64,000 nucleotides of DNA from a phage, in the sequence record PZ445451.1, one strand, 5' to 3'. The notes beneath the pieces are model-generated. The model did not search any database. It had not been told where the DNA came from and saw only the letters and a program-made list of their open reading frames with translations. Each line of letters opens with the position of its first letter. Within the stretch, counting starts at the first letter, position 1. Of this stretch, positions 9,495 through 14,238 are shown one piece after another. A program made the translations under genes and the position numbers.

Positions 9495-10901
9495 ATGGCA
9501 ACTTTTCGTGATAAGGTAGTTTCCGTAACCCTTACCTACGGTGCTACTTCAATTAGTGAAACACAGTTTGATATCCCTCTAATTCTTACAGGGCATAACG
9601 TTACTGGCAATCTTGTAGATTATTTCACTTCTTCAGACGCACTTCTGCAAGCAGGTTTTGGCACTGCCGATCCAGCTTATAAAATGGCAAAACTACTATT
9701 TGACGGTCTGTTCGCACCAGAACAAGTTATCGTCGGTAAGCGTGATGTTTCTAAAACAACTCTAACTCCAGTAGTTGAAGATAGTGCAACTTACGTTATC
9801 ACTATTAAAGCAAATTCAAAAAGCAAGGACTTCAAGTTTGTTGCCGATGATACTGCAACTGCTCAAGAGATTGTTGTTGGTTTAACAGAAATGATCAACG
9901 CAGACATAGTGTATAAAGAATTCTTCACTGTGTCAAACGATGGTAGTGTTATCACTGTAACCCCAGTTGCAGGTAAATACGCTACTATGGATAGTTCAGG
10001 ATTCACAACTAAAGTAGAATATGCAAATGATATCTTAGAAGATATTGCTAAAATTGCAGATTATGAAAACAGTTGGTTCTGGTTACTATCTGATTCTCAC
10101 GCAGAACAAGATATTATCGATCTAGCAGGTTATGTAGAAGAGCACGATAAAGTGTATTTCTTCTCTACCTCGCAACCAGGTGTTCTAACTAAAGAAGAAG
10201 ATAACATTCTAGAACGCTTAGGTGATATGGGCTACAATAACACTTGTATGGCATTGTGGATGACTAACGCTGATACAGTGTTCCCAGAGGCTGCTGTAGT
10301 TGGTTCTATCTGCTCTGCAACACCAGGTACTACTACCCTGCATGGTAAAACCCTTGTTGGTATCGAGATTGAAAAACTTGGTCAGACAGCAGAAAACTTT
10401 ATCGTTCAACAGAATGGTAATATTTACCGTAAAGAACACGGTGTTCTGTTCTACCGTGATGGTTTCATGGTTAGTGGTTTCTATGTTGACTATGTGGTAC
10501 ACGCTCTGTGGTTCAAAGCTCGTGTAGAAGAATCTCTGTTCGCTCTATTTAAACAGCAATCTATGCTTGGTAGTGGTGTTAGAGCAACTTCTGCTGGTCT
10601 TGCTTTGATTCGTCAGGCTGTTACTGCAAACCCAATCCAAGTAGGTATTAACAATGGTTCTATTGCCAATGAGGTAGTAACTTCAGAGGAAACAGGACTT
10701 CTGGTAAGCCTTAAACCTACTATCTATATCCCATCTCGTGCAGATATGACTGATGCTCAAATCAATGCACGTTTGGTTGATGGTATGGTTATTGAATACG
10801 TATACGCTGGATTCTTCCACTATGTTAAAGTGCAGGTAAACGTTCTGACGAACCGCACTGCAAATAGCCAGAATTCCAATAGCTCTACTGTATCTTCATA
10901 A
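9495..10901 (+). CDS. Tail sheath protein (putative)
   Basis: 468 aa ORF followed by a ~160 aa tube-size gene, chaperone pair and tape measure (canonical contractile-tail order); strong RBS; terminator hairpin downstream. Confidence 0.5.
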   Translation: MATFRDKVVSVTLTYGATSISETQFDIPLILTGHNVTGNLVDYFTSSDALLQAGFGTADPAYKMAKLLFDGLFAPEQVIVGKRDVSKTTLTPVVEDSATYVITIKANSKSKDFKFVADDTATAQEIVVGLTEMINADIVYKEFFTVSNDGSVITVTPVAGKYATMDSSGFTTKVEYANDILEDIAKIADYENSWFWLLSDSHAEQDIIDLAGYVEEHDKVYFFSTSQPGVLTKEEDNILERLGDMGYNNTCMALWMTNADTVFPEAAVVGSICSATPGTTTLHGKTLVGIEIEKLGQTAENFIVQQNGNIYRKEHGVLFYRDGFMVSGFYVDYVVHALWFKARVEESLFALFKQQSMLGSGVRATSAGLALIRQAVTANPIQVGINNGSIANEVVTSEETGLLVSLKPTIYIPSRADMTDAQINARLVDGMVIEYVYAGFFHYVKVQVNVLTNRTANSQNSNSSTVSS

Positions 10902-10959: not shown

Positions 10960-11439
10960 TTGGATAAAATGCTTACTGGCGTAATGGCCTATGATCCTTC
11001 TCAAGTAATCCTGTCTTTGGGTGGTTGGGAACCTTGGGGTTTCGCCGCAGATACCAAAATTGTTATTAACAAAACTAACGATATCATCAACCCATATTCA
11101 GGTACTGATGGTGACGTTTCCTTGGCGCTTAGTCGTAACCGTTTAGGTACGCTAACAATGTCACTGCAACGTACTTCCCCAGCAAACGAAGTTCTTGCTG
11201 CTTATGCACAAACGATGTATTCTACTCGTCAAGTAGCATTTAGCGTATATCTAGAAGACCCTCGCGGATATTATATCAGCACAATTGGTTGGATTCAAAG
11301 CCAACCGGACGACACTATTGGTGAAACTATTCAAGAAAACCAATGGGTAATTGGTCTTAAAGATGCAAGCCTACTTCGTTCTACTGTAGGTGTTGGTGTT
11401 AACGCACTTAACTCTATTAGTGCTCTAACTATTCAGTAA
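10960..11439 (+). CDS. Tail tube protein (putative)
   Basis: 159 aa ORF between sheath and chaperone genes; TTG start 7 nt after AAAAGGAG. Confidence 0.5.
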   Translation: MDKMLTGVMAYDPSQVILSLGGWEPWGFAADTKIVINKTNDIINPYSGTDGDVSLALSRNRLGTLTMSLQRTSPANEVLAAYAQTMYSTRQVAFSVYLEDPRGYYISTIGWIQSQPDDTIGETIQENQWVIGLKDASLLRSTVGVGVNALNSISALTIQ

Positions 11440-11443
11440 TAAA

Positions 11444-11468
11444 AAGGGCAGAAATGCCCTTTATTTTA
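11444..11468 (+). terminator. Rho-independent terminator after the tube gene
   Basis: aagggc...gccctt stem followed by tattttaaa. Confidence 0.55.
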
Positions 11469-11481
11469 AAGAGAGGAAATA

Positions 11482-11964
11482 ATGGAACAACAAAAAGATA
11501 ATACTATTGCAAAATTTGCTCGTCCAGAAGTAATGGTTGAAATTGATCTGGATGAAGGACGCAGTGTAAAATTTAGAGTTCTCAAGTGGAGTCCGACTAA
11601 AGTTTTTGAAAGGATTCCAGAACTAGGTAGTGTACTGGCTGTTCCTATGACAATGTATAATACTGCTCTTATGTCAGCAGACGAAGATCTAGAAGCTCGT
11701 ATTGCTATGGCACTGATCCAATTATTCAGTGGTCTGGAAGAAAAAAACTTAGCTGCATTCTTACGTAAAATTTTAGATGAAGTTTACACAGAAGCAGGAC
11801 ACAGTGTTTCCGATAATTTTGATGAATTGTTTTTTGCTCACCCAGAATTAGTTGTTGACTTAGCTGCAAAAGTTCTTGAGGTGAACTATGCCCCTTTTTT
11901 CAAACGAGGTTTCGGAAAACTGTTGACCCAATTTCAAGGAATAGAGACTCTAGCGAAGAGTTAA
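11482..11964 (+). CDS. Tail assembly chaperone (lambda G-like)
   Basis: 160 aa acidic protein between tube and tape measure; contains a slippery heptamer near its 3' end. Confidence 0.6.
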   Translation: MEQQKDNTIAKFARPEVMVEIDLDEGRSVKFRVLKWSPTKVFERIPELGSVLAVPMTMYNTALMSADEDLEARIAMALIQLFSGLEEKNLAAFLRKILDEVYTEAGHSVSDNFDELFFAHPELVVDLAAKVLEVNYAPFFKRGFGKLLTQFQGIETLAKS

Positions 11965-12239
11965 GTCCGGCAATTAAATCAGCAATTGAAATTGCCTCAC
12001 AAACCCTTAGCTTGACATGGTATGAAGTAATTCTTTGTAAGGTAATTAAGAATACCTCCGAAACCTTGTCCTCGTTAGATAATTATGGTGTAGATTATCT
12101 ACTTAAAATTTATGAATATTTAACATTTGAAGACTATGTACAAGATCTTCACGTTAAAGATGCGGATATTAAACGTGGTCAACAGAGAACAATAAGAGAA
12201 CTGGATACGGCTATGAAAAAATTAATTCCAGATTCATAA
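11482..12239 (+). CDS. Tail assembly chaperone frameshift fusion product (G-T-like, about 252 aa), predicted
   Basis: -1 shift at 11895-11901 joins the 11482 frame to the frame of track ORF 12012..12239 with no intervening stops; conserved arrangement upstream of tape measure genes. Confidence 0.5.
11895..11901 (+). promoter_or_regulatory. Programmed -1 ribosomal frameshift slippery heptamer T_TTT_TTC
   Basis: Heptamer in X_XXY_YYZ register at codons F139-F140; the -1 frame is open from here to the stop at 12239. Confidence 0.55.
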
Positions 12240-12258
12240 GTAATACGGAGGATTACCC

Positions 12259-14238
12259 TTGTTAGAAATTAACACTTCCAAGATTAAGAATACAGTAACG
12301 TTTACTGTAGATAAAGACAGTTTAAAAAATACTAAAGACGCAATTAAAAACCTTAAAACTTTTACAGAATCTATTGAACCATCTTTAAATATGACTAAAA
12401 TGCGTCGTCAGTTTAAAAGTATGGAAGAGTATGCTAAAAGAATAAGGCAGCAAATGTCAGGTCTTGGCGGCGGTAATCCTCCACCAATCCCACCAACCGG
12501 AGGTTCAAGTGGTGGTGGAAAAGGAGGAAGTGGTAGAGGTGGTTCTGGATCTTCTGGAGGACGTAAGACACCAGAGGAAAGAGCCGCAGAAGCCGCCGCT
12601 AAACGTGCAGCACTTGCTAATATGAAGCAAGACGATTTTAGTTTTAAAGCTATGCCTTTTACAAAAGCAGACAGCAGAATTCTAGAAAAATCTAAAAAGA
12701 TTGTAGAAGAAACTGTTGAACTTTATCGTAAAGGTGTAATCACTAGCCAACAAATGAATAATACTTTGGCTAGACAGTTAGAAGAACTACGAAGATCTCA
12801 TAGAGAGAAGAATGCACAACTTCTTGATGAAGAGAGAGCTAGACGTAGAATTGCCCGTCTGCAAGAAGCAGAAGATAAAAGAAGACAGCGTATCCGAGAA
12901 AGAGAAAGAAAGGATTTCGAACGTCAGCAAAGAAGAGAGAAAGAAGCAAGACAACGAGATAGACAACGTAAGCTATCTGGTGTAGGTAATGCTGCTATTG
13001 CTCTTAACCCTGCTATGTTTGGTGCTGCTCTTTTAGGTGCTGGTTTATATCAAGGTATAAGCAAAATAGCTGAAAATATTACAGCGGCGGCAGAACGTAT
13101 TAATATGGTTAGTAAAGGTGGTCAGAACGTACAGGTAAACCCTAACGCAATTTTAACAATGCGTACTTGGGGTGAAATGAACGGTGTAGACTCTGCCAGC
13201 ATTATTAAAGCCATTGACAATATTAAAGACGTTCGTGAACGTTTAGGTAATACTGTACTCCACTCTGAATTTGATGAAAAATCAGGTAAATGGAAAGGTG
13301 GAGATAGTGGTATTAATGAAATCATGAACCAATTTGGTTGGTCGAAAGAAGATGTTGCTAAATTCCAGAACAGACCTCTAGACTTTGTTCAAGCACTTGT
13401 TAATGAAGGTCAAAAAAGAGGAATGAACTCCGCGCAAATTGGTCGTTTGATGGAAAACCTTGGTGATGACTTAATGCACTACCAACGTATGTTTTTGGAT
13501 AACGGTAAAGAGTACATGAAAGTCTTGGATATGTTAAAAAATTCAGGAGCAACTCTTAACGATGAAAACATCAAAGCAGCACAAGATTTTGTTAAACTAA
13601 GAGCACAAATTAGTGCAGCAGGAGAAGGTTTTACCAATAACTTACTTGTAGGGTTTATGGATGGTTTAAAATCTGCACCAGATTTTGCAGAAAATATGAA
13701 AACTTTCCAAGAAGCTGCTCGTGGTCTTGGTGAAATGTCTGGTAGTATTGTAAGTAGCCTTGCAAAAATTGCGAAATATTTCCTTGATTTTTCAAATAAG
13801 GTTGGGCCAAAAAACAATACTAAAGAAGCTGTAAGAGATTATTATAATGGTACGCAGTATGGGTACGATGCACAGGTTGGTGGTAATCCTTGGGCTTATT
13901 GGCCTATTGGAAGAGATCAATATAAACCTGAAAATCAACCTTTAGGTGACTTTGATAGTAGTTTCTTAACTAGTGCCTTAAACCCAAGTGCTTCTAGTAT
14001 CGGTTATAATAGACCTGATTTAACAGCATCTATGCTAACACCACGCCAAGGTGTTCCAGTACCGTTAAGTGTAGAGAATACGGTTGTTATCCCAGACAAC
14101 GCATTCCAGATTAATGTTATTCCAGATGGCTATGGTTTTAGTAATTATCTAGATGCGACAATGAATACCAGTTTTAGTAACTTCTCACAAGGTTTAACTC
14201 TTCAGTTAAGCAGTGGACAATCTTCTACTGGTGGTTAA
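12259..14238 (+). CDS. Tail tape measure protein
   Basis: 659 aa; Gly-rich N-terminal region, highly charged Arg/Glu/Gln coiled coil (RRRIARLQEAEDKRRQRIRERERKD), hydrophobic segment; downstream of the chaperone pair; TTG start with GGAGGA RBS. Confidence 0.65.
   Translation: MLEINTSKIKNTVTFTVDKDSLKNTKDAIKNLKTFTESIEPSLNMTKMRRQFKSMEEYAKRIRQQMSGLGGGNPPPIPPTGGSSGGGKGGSGRGGSGSSGGRKTPEERAAEAAAKRAALANMKQDDFSFKAMPFTKADSRILEKSKKIVEETVELYRKGVITSQQMNNTLARQLEELRRSHREKNAQLLDEERARRRIARLQEAEDKRRQRIRERERKDFERQQRREKEARQRDRQRKLSGVGNAAIALNPAMFGAALLGAGLYQGISKIAENITAAAERINMVSKGGQNVQVNPNAILTMRTWGEMNGVDSASIIKAIDNIKDVRERLGNTVLHSEFDEKSGKWKGGDSGINEIMNQFGWSKEDVAKFQNRPLDFVQALVNEGQKRGMNSAQIGRLMENLGDDLMHYQRMFLDNGKEYMKVLDMLKNSGATLNDENIKAAQDFVKLRAQISAAGEGFTNNLLVGFMDGLKSAPDFAENMKTFQEAARGLGEMSGSIVSSLAKIAKYFLDFSNKVGPKNNTKEAVRDYYNGTQYGYDAQVGGNPWAYWPIGRDQYKPENQPLGDFDSSFLTSALNPSASSIGYNRPDLTASMLTPRQGVPVPLSVENTVVIPDNAFQINVIPDGYGFSNYLDATMNTSFSNFSQGLTLQLSSGQSSTGG

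What the first reader, a model, noticed from the sequence alone, without database searches (positions are those of the whole stretch)
11895..11901. Programmed -1 frameshift site (T_TTT_TTC) in the tail assembly chaperone gene
A slippery heptamer lies in register in the last 20 codons of the G-like chaperone ORF, and the -1 frame is open from the slip site through track ORF 12012..12239. A -1 shift would give a G-T-type fusion of about 252 aa, the arrangement conserved between tube and tape-measure genes in long-tailed phages. The track's 12012 ORF begins with TTG and has no convincing independent RBS, consistent with expression only by frameshifting.
Basis: partly seen in the sequence, partly recalled or inferred. 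Interest (0 to 1): 0.5.

Follow-up and report, generated by a model that had tools for sequence, protein, structure and literature searches.

The report
Tail chaperone frameshift site, unannotated
This phi92-like E. coli phage very probably makes a second, longer form of its tail assembly chaperone by letting some ribosomes slip back one base at T_TTT_TTC, a well-known phage trick that the public records of this phage group have not annotated.

Summary
T_TTT_TTC (11895-11901) sits in 0-frame register (CCT TTT TTC = P138 F139 F140) in the tail assembly chaperone gene (11482-11964). That gene lies between the tube and tape-measure genes of Escherichia phage PaulScherrer, a phi92-like myovirus. 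The -1 frame is open from 11880 to 12239, so a slip gives exactly 140 + 112 = 252 aa.

One genome alone is weak evidence: the chance of a heptamer in this 28-codon stretch is about 0.12. Comparison makes the case.
- In all 62 related loci examined, the -1 frame runs 68-92 codons past the chaperone stop.
- 60 of the 62 keep T_TTT_TTC in register. The other two have A_AAT_TTT or G_GGA_AAG nearby.
- The heptamer codons never vary synonymously, while other conserved codons do.
- The annotated "intergenic" gap evolves like -1-frame coding sequence.
- The annotated TTG start at 12012 has no ribosome-binding site and cuts a conserved domain.

No conserved downstream RNA structure exists. A Shine-Dalgarno-like GAGGTGA lies 10 nt upstream and may stimulate slipping; this is unproven.

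This is a new member of the lambda G/GT kind of frameshift and mainly an annotation correction. No experiment has shown the fusion protein.

The parts
10960..11439 (+). Tail tube gene (phi92 gp131 homologue), the upstream neighbour that fixes the G/GT-type gene order
   Evidence: phrog_280 E=1.8e-36 and Pfam KPP10_Orf10. Annotated as tail tube protein in MZ501100.1. gp131 is the tube in the phi92 cryo-EM structure (PMC13450770).
11443..11470 (+). Terminator-like hairpin (AAAGGGCA GAAA TGCCCTTT) plus a T-rich tail, between the tube gene and the chaperone gene. It may lower transcription of the chaperone and tape-measure genes.
   Evidence: Fold -12.1 kcal/mol, z = -4.25, 0 of 200 shuffles as stable. 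Picked up by the terminator scan. A terminator is annotated at the same place in phage FBKp34. Function is inferred.
11482..11964 (+). Tail assembly chaperone short form (TAC-N, gpG-like), 160 aa, 18.1 kDa, the product of normal translation
11877..11879 (+). Last stop codon (TGA) of the -1 frame upstream of the slip site. It marks the 5' edge of the 85-nt stretch where a -1 shift would be productive.
11878..11884 (+). Shine-Dalgarno-like GAGGTGA, 10 nt upstream of the heptamer. Candidate 5' stimulator; hypothesis only.
   Evidence: Predicted duplex with the 16S 3' end is -11.5 kcal/mol, beyond the 1st percentile (-10.9) of local 16-mers. It is built from the phage's rare codons GAG (19% of Glu) and GTG (12% of Val). 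Its spacing falls in the 9-14 nt range reported for -1 stimulators (PMC5009743). It is strong in 16 of 26 unique upstream contexts among relatives and absent from several lineages.
11892..11901 (+). Slippery run C_CCT_TTT_TTC. The conserved core heptamer is T_TTT_TTC at 11895-11901, in 0-frame register.
   Evidence: Searches show T_TTT_TTC in register in 60 of 62 related loci. In 43 unique alleles, F139 is TTT 43/43, F140 is TTC 43/43, and codon 138 is CCT 20/20 or TGT 23/23. Two other invariant Phe codons (31 and 117) split TTT/TTC about evenly. U_UU.C is the second most shift-prone tetramer in E. coli (PMC4066793).
11901..12239 (+). -1-frame continuation, 112 codons plus stop: an RFR(K) motif, a variable linker, and a conserved helical C-terminal domain (T part)
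   Evidence: One search gives the translation. phrog_16039 E=3.2e-45 matches residues 38-109. The alignment of 35 unique fusions shows the conserved domain starting at SPAIKSAIEIA, about 12 residues upstream of the annotated TTG. Variability peaks at the -1-frame third codon position in 11965-12011: 1.62 against 1.06 and 0.80.
12012..12239 (+). ORF as annotated in GenBank (bas60_0017, hypothetical protein, TTG start). It is best read as the 3' part of the frameshift product, not a separate gene.
   Evidence: No ribosome-binding site (-0.3 kcal/mol). Annotated starts differ between records: TTG, ATG, ATT, CTG. The start cuts the conserved domain.
12259..14238 (+). Tape measure protein gene (phi92 gp134 homologue), the downstream neighbour and the expected client of the chaperone
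   Evidence: phrog_16051 at 1326.8 bits. Annotated as such. gp134 is the tape measure protein in phi92 cryo-EM.

Best explanation
A programmed -1 ribosomal frameshift of the lambda G/GT type.

Most ribosomes translating the chaperone gene (11482-11964) read through to TAA and make the 160-aa short form. A minority slip with tRNA-Phe on TTT in the P site and tRNA-Phe on TTC in the A site. Both tRNAs re-pair one base back (TTT, TTT), and reading resumes at CAA (11901).

The result is a 252-aa long form. It keeps the folded chaperone core (residues 1-140). It swaps the last 20, poorly structured residues for an RFR motif, a flexible linker and a conserved C-terminal domain.

By analogy with lambda gpG/gpGT, both forms coat the tape measure protein, and the extra domain of the rare long form recruits the tube protein. 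Neither form stays in the virion.

What is shown directly: the sequence arrangement, its conservation, and the coding signature of the -1 frame. What is inferred: the slip itself, its efficiency, and the role of the extra domain.
For: - Register and open frame.
- Chaperone identity and gene order sheath-tube-TAC-T-TMP.
- Conservation: in the 60 loci scanned by script (16 GenBank records, one being this phage's own record, and 44 IMG/VR contigs), the -1 frame runs 68-92 codons past the chaperone stop, while the +1 frame closes within 1-19 codons. Two further loci, fetched by tblastn and checked, have the same -1 layout. The set covers Stephanstirmvirinae, Vequintavirinae, Plateaulakevirus, Barbavirus and a Vibrio phage, with chaperone identity down to about 23-30%.
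- T_TTT_TTC is in register in 60 of 62 loci. Vibrio phage S4-7 has A_AAT_TTT and Rheinheimera phage Barba18A has G_GGA_AAG within a few codons of the same place.
- Synonymous-site test: of 16 conserved degenerate columns in 43 unique alleles, only F139, F140 and G143 use a single codon.
- In rV5 the change GGTTTCGC to GGTTTAGG alters the 0-frame peptide (GFA to GLG) but keeps RFR in the -1 frame.
- The annotated intergenic gap 11965-12011 varies most at -1-frame third positions.
- The TTG start has no ribosome-binding site, and the conserved domain extends upstream of it.
- The slip site falls exactly at the end of the confident fold in the AF2 model.
- This is the only such site in the 64-kb window.
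- U_UU.C and all-pyrimidine heptamers are shift-prone in E. coli (PMC4066793).
- The phi92 cryo-EM model lists gp130, gp131 and gp134 but neither gp132 nor gp133.
- The same kind of frameshift has been proposed or annotated in sister families (PMC12846349; PMC4319497).
Against: - No experimental evidence for the fusion protein in this phage or any close relative was found.
- In one genome alone, a heptamer in the productive stretch has a chance probability of about 0.12.
- The FF dipeptide is itself conserved, which explains part of the T run. Given PFF, codon usage alone would give T_TTT_TTY about 25% of the time.
- One of the two search patterns that brought in the IMG/VR loci contained FF at the protein level. 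That biases presence of FF, though not codon choice. The tblastn-derived loci are free of this bias.
- No conserved 3' stimulatory structure was found.
- The T-part model is too poor to interpret (pLDDT 46), so its function is by analogy only.
Confidence: 0.88

Rival explanations
1. Transcriptional slippage. RNA polymerase stutters on the T6 run and adds one U to a fraction of the mRNAs. Normal translation of those mRNAs then gives the same 252-aa protein.
For: The site is a homopolymer run of six T, and the base before FF is always T, which lengthens the run. Adding one U gives an identical protein, so protein data cannot separate the two mechanisms. A paper I could not read (Vladimirov et al. 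2022, cited in PMC12846349; not held) argues by its title for a non-ribosomal mechanism in T4-like phages.
Against: Documented bacterial slippage uses runs of about 9 A or T (PMC5009743). Here the run is exactly 6 in all 60 loci and never longer. Two relatives replace it at the same place with G_GGA_AAG and A_AAT_TTT, which are classical tandem-slippage heptamers and not homopolymer runs.
Confidence: 0.06
2. Two separate genes, as annotated. The 75-aa ORF starts on its own at TTG 12012 (or another nearby codon), and the heptamer is incidental.
For: All 18 GenBank records inspected annotate it this way. In several relatives an ATG is available.
Against: There is no ribosome-binding site (-0.3 kcal/mol against -7.2 to -9.5 for neighbours). 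The -1 frame contains no ATG or GTG between 11880 and 12012. Annotated starts are not conserved in position or codon: TTG, ATG, ATT, CTG. Conserved residues and -1-frame codon periodicity extend upstream of the start into the 'intergenic' gap. No stop occurs in the -1 frame between slip site and ORF in 62 of 62 loci.
Confidence: 0.04
3. Chance coincidence. The heptamer and the open -1 frame have no function, and the downstream ORF is not expressed.
For: The single-genome probability of a heptamer in the stretch is about 0.12.
Against: The downstream part is a conserved protein family (phrog_16039 E=3e-45). It is retained from Escherichia to Aeromonas, Rheinheimera and Vibrio phages, always in the -1 frame. 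The heptamer is invariant at synonymous sites.
Confidence: 0.02

Closest known systems
Phage lambda gpG / gpGT programmed -1 frameshift (Levin, Hendrix & Casjens 1993; Xu, Hendrix & Duda 2004, 2013, 2014; summarised in PMC5009743)
   Same: Two overlapping ORFs lie between the major tail/tube gene and the tape measure gene. [quoted passage not shown] The second ORF is in the -1 frame and has no start signals of its own. Neither site has a recognised 3' stimulatory structure (for lambda this is from my own knowledge). The products are not expected in the virion.
   Different: The heptamer is T_TTT_TTC rather than G_GGA_AAG (the lambda heptamer is quoted from my own knowledge). The phage is a contractile-tailed myovirus of about 150 kb. 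There is no detectable sequence similarity to gpG or gpT. A Shine-Dalgarno-like element lies 10 nt upstream. Efficiency and function are untested here.
Phage P2 gpE / gpE+E' frameshift (Christie et al. 2002; slippery T_TTT_TTG, quoted from my own knowledge). PMC5009743 notes that P2-type efficiency is 2-3 fold higher than lambda's.
   Same: A contractile-tailed phage, a poly-T heptamer, and a chaperone pair placed after the sheath and tube genes and before the tape measure gene.
   Different: A different protein family (Phage_TAC_15 here) and a different last base of the heptamer.
Proposed -1 frameshift with an invariant GTTTTT motif in Vandenendeviridae (Pakpunavirus Adele) and Andersonviridae (PMC12846349, Dec 2025). 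A frameshifted 'tape measure chaperone' is also annotated in the Felix O1-like phage Moogle (PMC4319497).
   Same: These are sister lineages of Stephanstirmvirinae and Vequintavirinae by capsid, terminase and portal phylogeny. They share the argument (the -1 frame open in every genome, a poly-T motif at the 3' end of TAC-N) and the same habit of annotating the second ORF as a hypothetical protein. The Vequintavirinae context TGT TTT TTC contains GTTTTT.
   Different: That paper does not analyse the chaperone locus of Stephanstirmvirinae or Vequintavirinae; its three mentions of Stephanstirmvirinae concern phylogeny. In phi92-like phages the base before the run is C (CCCTTTTTTC), not G.
E. coli dnaX -1 frameshift (A_AAA_AAG with a 5' Shine-Dalgarno-like stimulator and a 3' stem-loop)
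   Same: A Shine-Dalgarno-like sequence lies about 10 nt upstream of the heptamer, within the 9-14 nt range reported for -1 stimulation (PMC5009743).
   Different: There is no 3' stem-loop. The heptamer differs. The Shine-Dalgarno-like element is not conserved in all relatives, and any stimulation is untested.

Membership tests
G/GT-type tail assembly chaperone with programmed -1 frameshift (Xu et al. 2004) | The gene pair lies between the major tail/tube gene and the tape measure gene | tested here: met
   Order is sheath 9495-10901, tube 10960-11439, TAC 11482-11964, T ORF, TMP 12259-14238.
G/GT-type tail assembly chaperone with programmed -1 frameshift (Xu et al. 2004) | The second ORF is in the -1 frame, overlaps the 3' end of the first, and is open from the slip site | tested here: met
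   The -1 frame is open 11880-12239, with an 85-nt overlap.
G/GT-type tail assembly chaperone with programmed -1 frameshift (Xu et al. 2004) | A slippery X_XXY_YYZ heptamer in 0-frame register inside the overlap | tested here: met
   T_TTT_TTC at 11895-11901, preceded by the overlapping C_CCT_TTT.
G/GT-type tail assembly chaperone with programmed -1 frameshift (Xu et al. 2004) | The frameshift arrangement is conserved among diverged relatives | tested here: met
   62 of 62 loci keep the -1 arrangement; 60 keep the same heptamer and 2 have other canonical heptamers. The heptamer is invariant at synonymous sites.
G/GT-type tail assembly chaperone with programmed -1 frameshift (Xu et al. 2004) | The first ORF is a tail assembly chaperone by sequence or fold | tested here: met
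G/GT-type tail assembly chaperone with programmed -1 frameshift (Xu et al. 2004) | The second ORF lacks its own translation start signals | tested here: met
   TTG start with anti-SD pairing of -0.3 kcal/mol against -7.2 to -9.5 for neighbours. There is no ATG or GTG upstream in that frame.
G/GT-type tail assembly chaperone with programmed -1 frameshift (Xu et al. 2004) | The fusion protein is made at a low, fixed ratio and is required for tail assembly | not testable with these tools
   This needs a reporter assay, mass spectrometry and genetics.
G/GT-type tail assembly chaperone with programmed -1 frameshift (Xu et al. 2004) | Both products are absent from mature virions | tested here: inconclusive
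   The phi92 cryo-EM model lists no gp132 or gp133 (PMC13450770). The rV5 virion proteomics text names gp49, gp52 and gp53 but not gp50 or gp51 (PMC3606486). The supplementary tables were not read.
dnaX-type -1 frameshift signal (SD-like 5' stimulator plus 3' stem-loop) | A Shine-Dalgarno-like sequence 9-14 nt upstream of the heptamer | tested here: met
   GAGGTGA at 11878-11884, 10 nt upstream, -11.5 kcal/mol. The spacing rule is from PMC5009743. Presence only; a stimulatory effect is untested, and the element is missing in several related lineages.
dnaX-type -1 frameshift signal (SD-like 5' stimulator plus 3' stem-loop) | A stable, conserved 3' stem-loop a few nucleotides after the heptamer | tested here: not met
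   Folding z-scores run from +0.6 to -1.5 in the window. RNAalifold on 12 Stephanstirmvirinae sequences predicts 0 pairs. There is no Rfam match above threshold.
Programmed transcriptional slippage site | A homopolymer run long enough for RNA polymerase slippage (about 9 A or T in bacteria) | tested here: not met
   The run is T6 in all 60 loci. Two relatives have non-homopolymer heptamers at the same place.

The most novel reading that the evidence does not exclude
In phi92-like, phAPEC8-like and rV5-like phages the chaperone frameshift is tuned not by any downstream RNA structure but by a dnaX-style internal Shine-Dalgarno-like sequence. This is GAGGUGA, 10 nt upstream of U_UUU_UUC, and it is built from the phage's rare Glu and Val codons. 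Lineages that lack it (phiTE-like, some Klebsiella phages) would then run a different short-to-long chaperone ratio. That would make this a natural series for studying how the G:GT ratio is set.
Probability: 0.3. Interest if true: 0.35.

Novelty: new member of a known kind. Interest (0 to 1): 0.27.

Why it matters
It corrects the annotation of a whole group of widely used E. coli and Klebsiella phages: phi92, the BASEL collection phages, and the phAPEC8, rV5 and PVP-SE1 relatives. In these records a 'hypothetical protein' is really the C-terminal part of the long tail assembly chaperone. In the 5.8-billion-cluster protein database, no hit covered more than 60% of the fused product.

It extends the near-universal G/GT frameshift rule to two more subfamilies of large myoviruses. 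It also gives an exact site, junction peptide and synonymous knockout design for anyone engineering or studying tail assembly in these phages. It does not reveal a new mechanism.

Tried and rejected
- Downstream stimulatory structure. Folding 60-121 nt after the heptamer in the window and in 6 relatives gave unremarkable z-scores. RNAalifold on 12 Stephanstirmvirinae sequences gave no pairs. The conserved GGTTTCG after the heptamer shifts by 3 nt between subfamilies and encodes GFG (0 frame) and RFR (-1 frame), so it is a dual-coding constraint rather than an RNA element.
- Rfam at a permissive threshold gave only sub-threshold hits: SraG-like on the minus strand over the terminator hairpin, and a CRISPR-DR35-like hit.
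The T part alone, without an alignment, gave pLDDT 46, which is unusable, so no fold search was run on it.
- NCBIfam and PDB sequence searches with the fusion found nothing significant.
- Pfam found no family for the T part.
- Other slip candidates in the gene. A_AAA_AAC at 11742-48 is in register, but the -1 frame stops 6 codons later. The T6 run at 11830-35 is not in -1 register.
- Literature: no paper in the held library describes this frameshift for phi92-like or rV5-like phages. Vladimirov et al. 2022 could not be read.
- A second heavy protein search to build an alignment for the T part was judged not worth the cost.

Full report
**What the window is.** The region 11440-12300 is 100% identical to Escherichia phage PaulScherrer (MZ501100.1, BASEL Bas60; Justusliebigvirus, Stephanstirmvirinae). 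This is a phi92-like myovirus of about 150 kb. Window coordinates equal record coordinates minus 675.

The local gene order is:
- tail sheath 9495-10901 (phrog_205)
- tail tube 10960-11439 (phrog_280)
- a 160-aa ORF 11482-11964 that is a tail assembly chaperone (Pfam Phage_TAC_15 E=1.6e-22; phrog_3840 E=4e-54)
- a 75-aa annotated ORF 12012-12239 (phrog_16039, function unknown)
- the tape measure gene 12259-14238 (phrog_16051)

In the phi92 cryo-EM structure the homologues gp130, gp131 and gp134 are sheath, tube and tape measure. gp132 and gp133 are not among the virion components listed (PMC13450770).

**Checking the observation.** The sequence reads GCC CCT TTT TTC AAA in the chaperone frame. 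T_TTT_TTC at 11895-11901 is therefore an X_XXY_YYZ heptamer in 0-frame register, covering the third base of P138, then F139 and F140.

The -1 frame has a TGA at 11877-79 and is then open to 12237-39. It is the frame of the annotated 12012 ORF. A -1 slip gives 140 + 112 = 252 aa, 28.8 kDa.

The run is in fact C_CCT_TTT_TTC, two overlapping heptamers that would give the same protein.

**Is it more than chance?** In one genome, only moderately. In-register heptamers occur at 0.0044 per codon in the window's long ORFs. That gives about a 12% chance of one in the 28-codon productive stretch.

However, this is the only place in 64 kb where an in-register heptamer leads into a -1 frame that continues at least 30 codons beyond the 0-frame stop. 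T_TTT_TTC in register occurs only once in the window.

**Comparative evidence.** I collected 62 related loci:
- 16 GenBank records (one is PaulScherrer's own record), found by blastn or tblastn
- 44 IMG/VR contigs
- 2 more distant phages, found by tblastn with the rV5 protein

They span Stephanstirmvirinae, Vequintavirinae (rV5, PVP-SE1, phiTE), Plateaulakevirus (Aeromonas), Barbavirus (Rheinheimera) and a Vibrio phage. Chaperone identity falls to about 23-30%.

In the 60 loci scanned by script, the -1 frame runs 68-92 codons past the chaperone stop, while the +1 frame closes within 1-19 codons. The two further loci show the same -1 layout.

T_TTT_TTC is in register in 60 of the 62. The two exceptions carry other canonical heptamers within a few codons of the same position: A_AAT_TTT in Vibrio phage S4-7 and G_GGA_AAG in Barba18A. 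So the frameshift is what is kept, not a particular peptide. The two substitute motifs are tandem-slippage heptamers, not homopolymer runs.

**Synonymous-site test.** Among 43 unique chaperone alleles there are 16 columns with a conserved amino acid that has more than one codon. Thirteen of them use 2-6 different codons. These include two other invariant Phe positions that split TTT/TTC about evenly.

The only single-codon columns are F139 (TTT 43/43), F140 (TTC 43/43) and G143 (GGT 43/43). G143 lies in the dual-coding overlap. The codon before the pair is CCT (20/20) or TGT (23/23), so it always ends in T.

One caveat applies. One of the two patterns used to scan IMG/VR contained FF at the protein level. 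That cannot bias codon choice, and the tblastn-derived loci are free of it.

**The downstream frame is coding from the slip site on.** The aligned fusion proteins show three parts:
- a conserved FF-x(2-3)-RFR(K/R/D) motif immediately after the slip
- a variable linker of about 15-35 residues
- a conserved domain that begins at SPAIKSAIEIA, about 12 residues before the annotated TTG

In rV5 the nucleotide change GGTTTCGC to GGTTTAGG alters the 0-frame peptide (GFA to GLG) but preserves RFR in the -1 frame.

In 12 Stephanstirmvirinae sequences, variability in the annotated intergenic gap 11965-12011 is 1.62 bits at -1-frame third positions. It is 1.06 and 0.80 at the first and second positions.

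The annotated TTG has no ribosome-binding site: -0.3 kcal/mol against -7.2 to -9.5 for the four neighbouring starts. The -1 frame has no ATG or GTG between 11880 and 12012. Different records start this ORF at TTG, ATG, ATT or CTG, and at different positions.

**Structure.** An AlphaFold model of the short form was built with 19 aligned sequences (mean pLDDT 66.8, pTM 0.60). It has a confident core from residue 12 to 140 and pLDDT below 50 for residues 141-160. The slip site therefore sits exactly at the domain boundary. The frameshift swaps a floppy tail for linker plus extra domain.

**Stimulatory elements.** No conserved 3' structure exists. Folding energies after the heptamer are unremarkable. 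RNAalifold predicts no pairs in 12 sequences. Rfam has no match above threshold.

Upstream, GAGGTGA (11878-84) lies 10 nt before the heptamer. Several things make it notable:
- Its predicted pairing with the 16S 3' end is -11.5 kcal/mol, beyond the 1st percentile of local 16-mers.
- It is built from the phage's rare codons GAG (19%) and GTG (12%).
- The spacing is inside the 9-14 nt range reported for -1 stimulation (PMC5009743).
- A comparably strong element is present in 16 of 26 unique upstream contexts. That covers most Stephanstirmvirinae, the rV5-like phages and a few others.

It is weak or absent in the phiTE-like, PVP-SE1-like and some Klebsiella phage lineages. I treat it as a plausible lineage-specific enhancer, not as shown.

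**Mechanism.** U_UU.C is the second most shift-prone A-site tetramer in E. coli, and all-pyrimidine heptamers are favoured (PMC4066793). The most likely event is tandem re-pairing of two tRNA-Phe from UUU-UUC to UUU-UUU, at a low percentage. This yields a short and a long chaperone, as in lambda G/GT (PMC5009743). The functional roles are by analogy: both forms bind the tape measure protein, and the long form's extra domain recruits the tube protein.

**Rivals.**
- Transcriptional slippage on T6 would give the same protein. But the run is short, it is never lengthened in 60 loci, and it is replaced by non-homopolymer heptamers in two relatives.
- Independent initiation at 12012 is contradicted by the missing ribosome-binding site, the non-conserved starts and the coding signal upstream of the start.
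- Pure chance is excluded by the conservation.

**What is known.** The G/GT frameshift is a textbook feature of long-tailed phages. It has been annotated in the Felix O1-like phage Moogle (PMC4319497). In December 2025 it was proposed, with a GTTTTT motif, for Vandenendeviridae and Andersonviridae, sister groups of the two subfamilies studied here (PMC12846349).

I found no paper in the held library, and no GenBank record among the 18 inspected, that describes or annotates it for phi92-like or rV5-like phages. A search of 5.8 billion protein clusters with the fused sequence returned only 150-175-aa short forms, with coverage of at most 60%.

**Verdict.** It is a new, unannotated member of a well-known kind. 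Its interest is low to moderate and mainly lies in the annotation correction.

Noticed in passing
window 11443-11470: A strong hairpin (AAAGGGCA GAAA TGCCCTTT; -12.1 kcal/mol, z = -4.25) followed by TTTATTTT sits between the tube stop and the chaperone start. It looks like an intrinsic terminator or attenuator that would lower chaperone and tape-measure expression relative to sheath and tube. A terminator is annotated at the same spot in Klebsiella phage FBKp34. A sub-threshold SraG-like Rfam hit on the minus strand (11440-11564) overlaps it.
   Followed up: partly
window 11742-11748: A second in-register slippery heptamer, A_AAA_AAC, lies inside the chaperone gene. The -1 frame stops 6 codons later, so a slip there would only truncate the protein. 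It is present in phi92, appears as A_AAA_AAT in KP13-26, and is absent in the other relatives checked. It is probably incidental.
   Followed up: partly
L004, L011, L013 and other GenBank loci (the ORF downstream of the chaperone gene): The same small ORF is annotated with different and often non-standard start codons in different records: TTG in PaulScherrer and phi92, ATT in ESCO13 and PVP-SE1, CTG in rV5, and ATG elsewhere at non-homologous positions. This is a sign that gene callers are forcing a start onto a frameshift extension.
   Followed up: yes
L062 2132-2770 (Rheinheimera phage Barba18A); L015 2246-3346 (phiTE): In Barba18A an HNH endonuclease gene on the opposite strand is inserted between the chaperone extension and the tape measure gene. 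In phiTE, two extra ORFs sit there. So the otherwise tight TAC-T-TMP block tolerates insertions after the T part.
   Followed up: no
search hits: Records labelled Campylobacter, Pseudomonas, Acinetobacter and Serratia phages are 99% (or, for the phAPEC8-like ones, about 75%, the same as E. coli phapecoctaviruses) identical to this region of E. coli phi92-, phAPEC8- or rV5-like phages. The host labels of these records look doubtful.
   Followed up: no
window 11902-11925 and the homologous positions in all loci: The motif GGTTTCG just after the heptamer is almost invariant: G143 is GGT in 43/43 alleles and F144, where present, is TTC in 38/38. It encodes GFG in the 0 frame and RFR in the -1 frame. 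Its distance from the heptamer differs by one codon between subfamilies. That argues for dual-coding protein constraint rather than an RNA signal. The role of the conserved basic RFR(K) motif at the start of the extension is unknown.
   Followed up: partly
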